Assembly: GCA_964016885.1 (NCBI GenBank)
Contig: OZ024749.1
Coordinates: 46,004,001 to 46,068,000, forward strand
Reading direction: 5' to 3'
Origin: Eledone cirrhosa
Lineage: Eukaryota
Length of the DNA: 64,000 nt
This document shows positions 20,239-22,250 of this stretch, in pieces. The number at the start of each line of letters is the position of its first letter. The stretch's first letter is position 1. The notes below the pieces were generated by a model that saw only the letters and a list, made by a program, of their open reading frames with translations, did no database searches and had not been told where the DNA came from. The position numbers and the translations under genes are program-made.

Positions 20239-21701
20239 ATATATATATTGATATATTGTTAAAACACACACATATATGTATATATGTGTGTGTGCGTGCG
20301 TGCATATATGTGTATTTGTGTGTGTATGCGTTAAATATGTAAATGTGTCCTACTCCATCTTGCAATATATGCGTTAGGGTTTGTGTGTTTGTAACTGCTG
20401 TTGTAGAATTTATTCAATTTTCTCTAGATGAATACAAAGTATTGAAATTATATTATTTAACGTGTCACGTCATATTTGACCCATACTTGAAGAAATCATA
20501 CAAAAGGAAAATCGAAAGACAGAACCAAAAAGACAAAATGACACATATACACACATATAAACACCAGCACCACACAGAGACTTAGACATACATACTGGAA
20601 TAATCACAGAAATACACATTTTCACTCAGAAAATTGAAGCAAATAATGAAATAATTCCAAACCAGTTCCCTAATTACAAATAATATTTCCTTGTAAATGT
20701 CATATAGTGTTCTAAATTTACTGGACGTGACTGGATGCATATGGGTGCCGGTATACATGTTTGTGTGCGTTTATAAGTGTCTGTTCGTATGCGACATTGA
20801 TATTATATACATCCTTGTGTTTTTCTGCGCAGTTGTGAGTGTATGCATTGAAATACACACAGAGACACACATACACATACACAAACACATTCATACACAT
20901 TTTATATATATGTGTGTGTATTTGTGCACATGCGTATGTGTTTGTGTGTGCGTGTGCGTGTGTTTTTTTACTGAGTCTATCAACAAAATGTGTAGTCGCA
21001 GTTTACATAAACAGAGACAATTTAGTATGATATGTACACACTAAAATTCATTGCGCAACCAAATGTTTCATGCTCTCACAATATACATGTTTATTTGGGG
21101 ATGATATTTTGGCCAATATTGCTTTCATAACTGGTAAACATCACTTGAGATTCAATTGTTATCCCCTTCAATCTTTAGCCTATTGTAAGAAATAGAATTA
21201 ATCAGATATACTAAAGGAATTTCAGTTGTGCTTCAGGTGAGTGACAACATGTTTTGTAAACCTTCAGTTGATCGTATTTCCTTGTGTCAGGTATGTGATT
21301 ATGGTTCTATTTCGCTGTTATGTTTTGACAGGTGAAATCCATTTCTTTAAGGCTGGTTGATAACATATCCTTGTTTTTCATTAAAATATTTGTTTGTTTG
21401 GCTATTACATTATTTTCCCTCGCAGAGCAAATTTATCATCTCCTTACTCCTTTGGGTTTAATGAGTTACACGTCGAATTCAAAATGTTCAATACACCGAT
21501 TTCCTAATATCCACATCATTGTATTATGTATATTATTATATAATTCTGAATGTATATTTACGAATTTGAAAATGGGTGTTAATTCCGCTTTGAATTATAA
21601 TATTATTTTGAACAATTTTACAATCACTTGTCAGTTGTGTAATCGTATTCAAGCATTTCAGATAAGAGGGATATATCTGTACTGTATATATATATATATA
21701 T

Positions 21702-21769
<68 letters not shown>

Positions 21770-21772
<3 letters not shown>

Positions 21773-22157
21773 AGGTCACCATTCGGTGCTACTGATAACA
21801 TGTTTCCCTGTTCAACCTGTCTCATGGTCGGGTCGTTGGCGACTAAACTGGCAACCCCACCAACGTTTCTTGGTGAGGAGGGTGACTTTGGACATCTTGC
21901 AGGACTAAAAACAAAACCTGTCAAAGGGCAAAGGAGCTCTTAAGAGTCAATGGCCAAAATAATCACTTGGAGTAATGACCCCTTGGAGTAATGACCCCAG
22001 CCCCATGTGTCAATAATTGTGACAAGTGTAGTGTTTTTACCAGAGTTTTCAAGTCGCTGGCTGGACTAAAAAGTCACACTCGTTCAGTCTATCGGTAGGG
22101 ATTCTCCTACATGGATATAAAGTAGTGGCGGTACTCGAAAACGAGTTGGCACCTACC
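21770..22157 (+). mobile_element. Internally deleted RTE-clade LINE derivative (5' UTR joined to ORF C-terminus and 3' UTR), inserted in (TA)n
   Basis: The 5' part has GTCG..GGCGACTAAA within an HDV-like fold. The 3' part encodes CDKCSVFTRVFKSLAGLKSHTRSVYR* (22018-22098), resembling the C2H2-type motif at the end of RTE ORFs. A short 3' UTR with CTCG-AAAA-CGAG hairpin is followed by (TA)n. There is a 16-bp tandem duplication CTTGGAGTAATGACCC near the junction. Confidence 0.75.
21774..21851 (+). ncRNA. HDV-like (delta-like) ribozyme fold, partly decayed
   Basis: P1 GGTCA(21774-78)/TGGTC(21825-29); P2 CCTGT(21807-11)/ACTGG(21847-51), one mismatch; P3 TCA/TCA, central mismatch; L3 ACCTGTC with CC pairing GG(21830-31) as P1.1; P4 TCG-TTGG-CGA; J4/2 CTAA with candidate catalytic C21843. 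Confidence 0.6.
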
Positions 22158-22172
22158 ATATATATATATATG

Positions 22173-22250
<78 letters not shown>

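What the first reader, a model, noticed from the sequence alone, without database searches (positions are those of the whole stretch)
21770..22157. 388-bp minimal RTE derivative whose 5' end coincides with an HDV-like ribozyme
Seen: the nested double-pseudoknot pairings P1, P1.1, P2, P3, P4 and J4/2 CTAA can be drawn for 21774-21851. The predicted G1 lies only ~4 nt from the end of the upstream (TA)n. The rest is UTR-like sequence fused to a zinc-finger-like ORF end and a hairpin 3' UTR. Established: HDV-like ribozymes occur in 5' UTRs of RTE and other non-LTR retrotransposons, where they release the element RNA from read-through transcripts. Inference: a bipartite non-autonomous element that needs no Pol III promoter because the ribozyme defines its 5' end. 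Mismatches in P2 and P3 suggest this copy is impaired.
Basis: partly seen in the sequence, partly recalled or inferred. Interest (0 to 1): 0.7.

Follow-up and report, generated by a model that had tools for sequence, protein, structure and literature searches.

The report
Virus-type RNA roadblock heads a retrotransposon
This is a damaged, one-off shortened copy of a very common jumping element whose first 60 letters are predicted to fold not into a self-cutting ribozyme but into the nuclease-blocking RNA knot known from flaviviruses, which would likely set and protect the start of the element's RNA.

Summary
The 388-bp unit is real but not a family: its junction occurs once in the genome. It is a decayed deletion copy of a 610-bp non-coding, bipartite RTE family with about 13,000-22,000 copies. 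The HDV drawing fails: C21823 is C in 103 of 103 heads, P3 pairs in 29% of cells, and a permissive HDV descriptor rejects the head. Instead, positions 21770-21857 carry every sequence-testable hallmark of a flavivirus subclass-1a exoribonuclease-resistant RNA (xrRNA): G-C pseudoknot 1, U-A-U triple, 5-bp P1, unpaired C, P3, a covarying pseudoknot 2 and P4. These hold across seven RTE heads from this genome and from metagenome contigs. Copies start at this fold, 0-4 nt upstream of it, close to where Xrn1 halts on viral xrRNAs. Likely mechanism: 5'-3' exonucleases trim host read-through RNA up to the knot. Resistance is untested; Rfam scores are below threshold. No paper on this was found; an unreviewed note of this scan reached the same idea on another genome.

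The parts
21685..21769 (.). Upstream (TA)n array, the insertion target; may supply the bases at -1 to -4 of the RNA
   Evidence: flanks of 76 heads
21770..21828 (+). Predicted subclass-1a xrRNA-like fold: G21770 pairs C21813 (PK1); U21771 with A21791-U21811 (triple); P1 21772-21776/21815-21819; P2 hairpin 21777-21788; unpaired C21789; P3 21790-21795/21807-21812 (3 of 6 pairs broken in this copy at 21795, 21809, 21812); PK2 21797-21802/21823-21828
   Evidence: Rfam RF01415 sub-threshold hit on an intact copy; descriptor parse; pair counts; position table
21830..21857 (+).
   Evidence: 97% of cells paired, 2 pairs with changes on both sides; present in 4 of 5 MFE folds
21858..21984 (+). Rest of the retained RTE 5' UTR (family positions 89-216), a run of conserved hairpins
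21966..21998 (+). Private deletion joint: about 230 nt of the family lost, 16-bp tandem duplication, ATGACCC/ATGGGCCC microhomology
21996..22098 (+). Remnant of the last C2H2 zinc finger and stop codon of a zinc-finger-type RTE ORF
   Evidence: zinc fingers of the relative RTE-B
22099..22157 (+). 3' UTR ending in the GGCAGCCAYC-type terminal motif shared with autonomous RTE-B; likely the reverse-transcriptase recognition site
   Evidence: about 85% identity over 34 nt
22158..22248 (.). Downstream (TA)n array (tail and target duplication, not separable)

Best explanation
The window holds a decayed, once-deleted copy of a 610-bp non-coding RTE retroposon whose first 60 nt are predicted to fold into a flavivirus-type (subclass 1a) exoribonuclease-resistant knot that likely sets and protects the RNA's 5' end. 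Shown: copy number, bipartite build, unique junction, conserved and covarying helices, start of copies at the fold. Inferred: copies are transcribed by read-through from host promoters or introns; after decapping, debranching or upstream cleavage an XRN-type 5'-3' exonuclease eats the host leader and stalls a few bases before the knot, leaving a stable unit-length RNA without promoter or self-cleavage. Inferred: a zinc-finger RTE protein (RTE-B has intact 1,181-aa ORFs, the same terminal motif and the same microsatellite targets) copies it into (TA)n/(GTAT)n arrays. The window copy has lost half of P3 and is likely inactive.
For: Unprompted Rfam hit to Flavivirus_SLIV exactly over the head (25.5 bits, E 0.042; three weaker head hits). 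All defining 1a features from Vicens and Kieft 2021 and Szucs 2020 are present in 7 of 7 intact heads. On 8 aligned heads 90.5% of cells pair, 3 pairs change on both sides (all in PK2), covariation score reached by 3 of 500 shuffles, slid controls 23-48%. Descriptor score 22 reached by 0 of 4000 shuffles for each of two families and 0 times in 535 kb of background. A model built only from retrotransposon heads ranks the 3'-end motifs of five 10.7-11.0 kb viral contigs and two small ones in its top 9 matches among 80 pattern-selected viral loci, two of these hits lying outside the selecting pattern. 18 of 30 position-sampled copies and 15 of 22 RTE-A copies start at G1; 8 RTE-A copies with a TSD show 0-4 extra bases; 11 of 76 heads show a T-TAT phase break at -3; Xrn1 halts 5-6 nt before P1, that is at -3/-4. 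The head precedes an RTE ORF start in metagenome locus L143.
Against: No resistance assay and no RNA 5'-end data (searches gave contigs only). All Rfam scores are far below the gathering score of 54.5, and none was obtained for L143, L155, L167, L177, L103 or the window copy. The descriptor was written after the hit was seen; scores of 20-21 occur in 2-3 of 4000 shuffles and 5 times in background. A chance bacterial locus chosen by a P3 pattern scored 19 bits with the same model, and one genome-sized viral locus (L283) only 7.4. Only 8 related rows; PK2 has a mismatch in the young family and a gap in two rows. For the young family the nested xrRNA fold (-22.7 kcal/mol, pseudoknots not counted) is above the MFE (-25.9), and folding z-scores are not significant. 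Two RTE-A copies have 0 extra bases and 4 of 56 young heads have G at -1, which could be a cap trace. None of 10 intact-ORF RTE-B loci showed its own head next to the ORF, and the direct parent of the 610-bp family was not found.
Confidence: 0.55

Rival explanations
1. The head is an internal RNA polymerase II promoter that starts at G1; the same fold serves only to stabilise the RNA, help translation or bind the RTE protein.
For: Precise starts at G1 with 0-4 variable bases are also what a start site plus untemplated bases gives; G at -1 in 4 of 56 young heads; a shared ~70-bp 5' domain of other LINEs and mollusc LP-SINEs was proposed as a promoter (PMC4758252); RTE-A took over nt 1-275 recently, like 5' promoter switching.
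Against: Conservation is of base pairs with compensatory changes, including a pseudoknot, which a DNA promoter does not need; the invariant bases are those that define the xrRNA ring; recurrent break at -3. Not exclusive of the best explanation.
Confidence: 0.25
2. The head is a self-cleaving ribozyme (HDV-like as proposed, or an unknown class) that cuts at or near G1.
For: HDV-like and twister ribozymes are known at RTE 5' ends (PMC5786205, PMC6765202, PMC8501958); a CTAA after a short hairpin and a P2-like pairing exist in the young family; this genome has a separate canonical-looking HDV-like family.
Confidence: 0.1
3. The likeness to xrRNA is chance or convergence of a generic three-way junction with a pseudoknot, with no nuclease resistance.
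For: Sub-threshold scores; a short motif; thousands of families scanned; few independent homologs.
Against: The match covers topology, helix lengths, the order of parts, five defining single bases and the position at an RNA 5' end at once; shuffle and background controls do not reach it.
Confidence: 0.1

Closest known systems
Subclass 1a xrRNAs of mosquito-borne flaviviruses (Rfam RF01415; PMC8374639 parts 1-3 of 5 read; PMC7527734 and PMC5760640 passages)
   Same: Three-way junction, 5-bp P1 starting CAGG, G-C PK1, U-A-U triple, single C between P2 and P3, L3-based PK2, following hairpin; marks the 5' end of a defined RNA.
   Different: Lies at the start of a chromosomal retrotransposon, not in a viral 3' UTR; U-A replaces C-G at two stem ends; longer P3 and L3; below the Rfam threshold; resistance untested.
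Bipartite non-autonomous RTE LINEs such as RTESINE1/2, Bov-A, WALLSI3 (PMC5786205, passages and supplement search)
   Same: 5' UTR joined to the 3' end, no ORF, microsatellite tail; carries the RTE 5'-UTR motif found 74 times in that supplement.
   Different: Head predicted to be an xrRNA; direct parent not found; the window copy is a private second deletion.
HDV-like ribozymes of RTE/R2/L1Tc elements and R2 SIDEs (seen only through passages of PMC6765202, PMC5786205, PMC12222951; Ruminski 2011 not held), and twister variants of Perere-3 (PMC8501958, abstract and section 17)
   Same: A folded RNA at the extreme 5' end that frees and shields element RNA from a host co-transcript.
   Different: No catalytic core found; the end would be made by a host exonuclease (5' phosphate), not by self-cleavage (5' hydroxyl).
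LP-SINEs and the shared 5' domain of Nimb-17_LMi, I-3_DR, RTE-9_CPB (PMC4758252, section 10 and supplement passages)
   Same: A ~70-bp LINE 5' domain swapped between unrelated elements and heading non-autonomous copies.
   Different: The printed LP head differs from this head by eye (not aligned); proposed there as a promoter, no RNA fold given.
RTE-2_OV (PMC9115989, passages)
   Same: RTE-B here has a similar build: one ORF with endonuclease, RT and C2H2 finger, long UTRs, microsatellite starting at the ORF end.
   Different: Sequence identity not tested; no 5' RNA structure described in the passages seen.

Membership tests
Subclass 1a xrRNA | Three-way junction P1 (5 bp), P2 (variable), P3 (4-8 bp) | tested here: met
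   P1 97.5%, P2 outer pairs 100%, P3 87.5% of cells paired in 8 heads; window copy broken in P3
Subclass 1a xrRNA | PK1: 5' G pairs with the C of J3/1 | tested here: met
   G-C in 8 of 8 rows; the optional second pair fits in the young family, not in L143, L177, L209
Subclass 1a xrRNA | U-A-U base triple | tested here: met
   U2, A22, U42 invariant; 102 of 103 young heads each; bases only, geometry not shown
Subclass 1a xrRNA | Single conserved C between P2 and P3 | tested here: met
   C20 in 8 of 8 rows and 102 of 103 young heads
Subclass 1a xrRNA | PK2 between L3 and the strand 3' of P1 | tested here: met
   82.6% of cells paired, 3 of 6 pairs with changes on both sides; one mismatch in the young family
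Subclass 1a xrRNA | Rfam gathering score | tested here: not met
   20-25.5 bits against 54.5
Subclass 1a xrRNA | 5' end of the RNA 5-6 nt before P1 | tested here: inconclusive
   Genomic junctions show 0-4 extra bases and a break at -3; no RNA ends available
Subclass 1a xrRNA | Blocks Xrn1; ring around the 5' end | not testable with these tools
   Needs assay and structure
HDV-like ribozyme | 3-bp P3 with a U-led L3 and P1.1 | tested here: not met
   P3 29% paired; descriptor fails
HDV-like ribozyme | Conserved P1 and P2 forming the double pseudoknot | tested here: not met
   P2 74% paired, central pair kept in 1 of 7 rows; part of the drawn P1/J1-2 is the conserved P2 hairpin
HDV-like ribozyme | Element begins at the cleavage-site G1 | tested here: not met
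   Copies begin at 21770, four bases before the proposed G1
HDV-like ribozyme | Mg2+-dependent self-cleavage | not testable with these tools
   Bench assay
Bipartite non-autonomous RTE | RTE 5' UTR joined to an RTE 3' end, no ORF | tested here: met
   nt 1-275 shared with RTE-A, nt 192-398 69% like the RTE-B 5' UTR, tail like the RTE-B end
Bipartite non-autonomous RTE | Many copies share the junction | tested here: met
   Met for the 610-bp family (22,014 matches at its joint); not met for the 388-bp form (1 match)
Bipartite non-autonomous RTE | Autonomous parent with the same ends | tested here: inconclusive
   RTE-B is a relative with intact ORFs; no exact parent among 30 of 34 and 28 of 28 exclusion-pattern loci

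The most novel reading that the evidence does not exclude
A lineage of animal RTE retrotransposons and their non-coding derivatives uses a true subclass-1a xrRNA, so far known only from flaviviruses, to let host exonucleases cut their RNA out of read-through transcripts: a cellular xrRNA, a third way (beside promoters and ribozymes) to start a LINE, and a sign that this fold moved between RNA viruses and retrotransposons.
Probability: 0.45. Interest if true: 0.9.

Novelty: new variant of a known kind. Interest (0 to 1): 0.74.

Why it matters
Reviews state that xrRNAs have been characterised only in viruses (PMC8374639) and that no analogous structure is known in cellular RNAs (PMC12081666). 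A 60-nt candidate present in over 13,000 genomic copies and in several animals makes that open question testable with a standard one-day assay. If it holds, it explains how promoter-less, ribozyme-less LINE derivatives get uniform 5' ends, bears on the origin of the flavivirus fold, warns that some 'HDV-like' calls at RTE 5' ends may be misreadings, and offers a non-viral 5'-protecting element for RNA tools. The 388-bp copy itself is ordinary debris.

Tried and rejected
A 388-bp family: rejected. Twister: consensus columns of PMC8501958 absent. Hammerhead, pistol, hatchet, twister sister: compared from recall only, no fit; no Rfam hit. CR1-like RT hits are not the partner. An early reading of the 610-bp family as an RTE-A/RTE-B chimera was reversed when its middle proved to be RTE-B-type 5' UTR; RTE-A is the likelier recipient of the head. 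Exact parent: not found (one search was a mis-typed exclusion that served as a count and an unbiased sample). More homologs: prokaryote and viral pattern scans gave chance matches only; RTE protein scan of viral contigs empty; 35 of 42 metagenome matches were chance. A related head seen as loose ends in run X6 is not in G000. Expression: no RNA holder listed; contigs cannot show ends, and the GATC joints look like ligation artefacts. U6 fusions as a marker of 5'-hydroxyl ends: 0 of 68 U6 ends examined (of 106 matches) join the head, but no positive control was established, so it is not counted. Flavivirus-type CAC/GUG variant in G000: 0. One search used a mis-registered structure string and is void. 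LP-SINE head alignment is mostly a figure and could not be compared by tool.

Full report
What is there. Positions 21770-22157 lie between two (TA)n arrays. A search of the 3.0-Gb genome gave 2027 candidates, 40 scored. Almost all match the first 215 and last 162 bases with about 230 bases between them that the window copy lacks. Thirty-two full copies gave a 610-bp consensus; 31 are 0.5-2.5% from it and one 4.9%, while the window copy's two halves are 92.6% and 93.3% identical. Pattern counts give 13,227 heads, 18,810 matches at nt 263-287 and 22,014 at the 5'/3' joint. The window's own junction was found once. It sits at an ATGACCC/ATGGGCCC microhomology with a 16-bp tandem duplication. So the 388-bp form is a private deletion; whether it arose during or after insertion cannot be told.

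The parent family. It is non-coding and bipartite. Nt 1-275 are 98.5% identical to the 5' end of a full-length RTE (RTE-A, L103; RT and DUF6451), of which 23 junction matches exist, but RTE-A ends in a different tail. Nt 192-398 are 69% like the 5' UTR of a second, abundant zinc-finger RTE (RTE-B; intact 1,181-aa ORF), and the tail matches RTE-B's last finger and terminal motif. An older 530-bp family and a third family with RTE-B's own 3' end (L142) share the head. The simplest reading (inference): the three short families are bipartite derivatives of zinc-finger RTEs, moved by RTE-B-type protein into (TA)n/(GTAT)n arrays, and RTE-A picked up the head recently. The exact parent was not found (30 of 34 and 28 of 28 loci were truncations or small variants), and none of 10 intact-ORF RTE-B loci showed its own head next to the ORF; a long microsatellite lies at that place. 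Bipartite RTEs are known (PMC5786205, passages; motif in supplement).

The HDV proposal. Of the two predicted repairs, A at 21809 holds (101 of 103 heads) and G at 21823 does not (C in 103 of 103). A metagenome scan gave 42 matches, 7 of them real homologs in four sequence types; L143 runs on into an RTE ORF start. A permissive HDV descriptor that accepts 7 of 14 loci of an unrelated, canonical-looking HDV-like family in this genome and 74 of 300 shuffles rejects the window copy and the 610 consensus; the hits in the old family and L177 use different registers. No Rfam ribozyme family hits at E up to 10. Ruminski 2011 was not held, so its RTE ribozymes could not be compared directly.

What the head looks like instead. 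Rfam on an intact copy gave, as best hit, Flavivirus_SLIV over positions -5 to 67 (25.5 bits, E 0.042, gathering 54.5); three weaker hits fall on other heads, none on the four metagenome loci scanned. The defining features of subclass 1a xrRNAs are a three-way junction with 5-bp P1, variable P2 and 4-8-bp P3, PK1 with a G-C pair, a U-A-U triple, one C between P2 and P3, PK2 and P4 (PMC8374639; PMC7527734). Each is present in all seven intact heads. Pair counts: 90.5% of cells, three PK2 pairs changed on both sides, covariation score reached by 3 of 500 shuffles, slid controls 23-48%; the tool warns that related rows can beat shuffles, and one double change comes from a single copy (L209). C21823 is invariant because it pairs with G21802 in PK2, and A21809 belongs to P3. 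The hairpin after PK2 is 97% paired with two double changes. My descriptor gives 22 for both consensuses, 20-22 for the other heads and 18-22 for five viral contigs of 10.7-11.0 kb matched near their 3' ends, which I take for flaviviruses from size and position only; 22 was reached by 0 of 4000 shuffles twice and never in 535 kb of background, 20-21 rarely. The descriptor was written after the hit. Model R1, from retrotransposon heads alone, put those five and two small contigs in its top 9 matches among 80 pattern-selected viral loci, including two sites outside the pattern; a sixth genome-sized locus scored low, and a chance bacterial locus reached 19 bits. Thermodynamic folding is neutral to slightly against: z-scores -0.7 to +0.4, the old family's MFE shows P1, P3 and P4, the young family's MFE prefers another hairpin by 3 kcal/mol with pseudoknots not counted.

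The 5' end. Of 30 copies sampled by position through their 3' part, 18 start at G1 and 12 are truncated or rearranged. Of 22 RTE-A copies examined (of 23 listed, plus L104; L109 and one unplaced copy left out), 15 start at G1 in unrelated flanks; 8 with a recognisable target duplication have 0, 0, 2, 2, 2, 2, 3 and 4 extra bases. In microsatellite flanks 11 of 76 heads show a phase break just before TAT at -3 (duplications there are mostly ambiguous). On mosquito-borne flavivirus xrRNAs Xrn1 halts 5-6 nt before P1 (PMC5760640), which is -3/-4 here. This fits, but a start site with untemplated bases fits too, and 4 of 56 young heads have G at -1.

Mechanism. Shown: family, build, unique junction, conserved fold, start at the fold. 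Inferred: read-through transcription, entry of a 5'-3' exonuclease after decapping, debranching or cleavage, stalling at the ring, and copying by RTE-B-type protein. Other non-LTR elements solve the same problem with HDV-like or twister ribozymes, and the R2 ribozyme is also said to confer exonuclease resistance (PMC12222951, passage). I put the fold at about 0.8, real resistance at about 0.6, and a role in setting the 5' end at about 0.45-0.55. The window copy has three broken P3 pairs and fails the descriptor.

Novelty. Searches for xrRNA with retrotransposon (23 papers, listings seen; mostly prime editing), exoribonuclease-resistant with retrotransposon, with transposable element, Xrn1 ring-like, and searches showed no report of an xrRNA in a retrotransposon; subscription papers and bioRxiv supplements were not searchable. 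A 2021 review says xrRNAs were characterised only in viruses and a 2025 paper that none is known in cellular RNAs. I reached this reading; an unreviewed note of this scan (e1-10133478) showed the same idea on another genome. It is not independent proof, and it pointed me to the LP-SINE paper. Both parts are known kinds; their combination is not in the literature I could search.

Noticed in passing
L257:398-453 and L267:51-124, 398-450: Two small viral contigs (4,255 and 3,725 nt) carry subclass-1a-like xrRNA parses, one near the 3' end and one twice, though far shorter than flavivirus genomes.
   Followed up: no
L103:871-1144 and L365-L384: RTE-A shares nt 1-275 with the 610-bp family at 98.5% but has another ORF type and tail: a recent 5' switch between RTE lineages.
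   Followed up: partly
L484, L489, L491 and about 19 more of L483-L550: About 22 of 68 dispersed U6 3' ends are joined to nearly the same point of one short 3' tail; a tandem U6 gene cluster lies on C19.
   Followed up: no
L551-L564: A separate repeat family in this genome has a canonical-looking HDV-like fold (13 of 14 loci one family, 28-35 bits, below the Rfam cut-off).
   Followed up: partly
L209:1470-1555 (minus strand): A head with a different P2 followed at once by a second start of the same head, beside an oppositely oriented tRNA-type SINE; recalls tandem viral xrRNAs.
   Followed up: no
L011, L012, L019, L421, L448-L450: Copies of the 610-bp, old and RTE-B families insert into each other's (GTAT)n tails and form head-to-tail arrays, which would give read-through multimers.
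   Followed up: partly
family nt 86-200; window 21855-21960: A run of four conserved hairpins with an A-rich loop follows the head in all homologs (4 of 21 pairs with double changes); role unexplained.
   Followed up: partly
L026:1778-2020 (family nt 278-520): An 80-codon open frame in the 610-bp consensus, not kept in the older family; probably chance.
   Followed up: no
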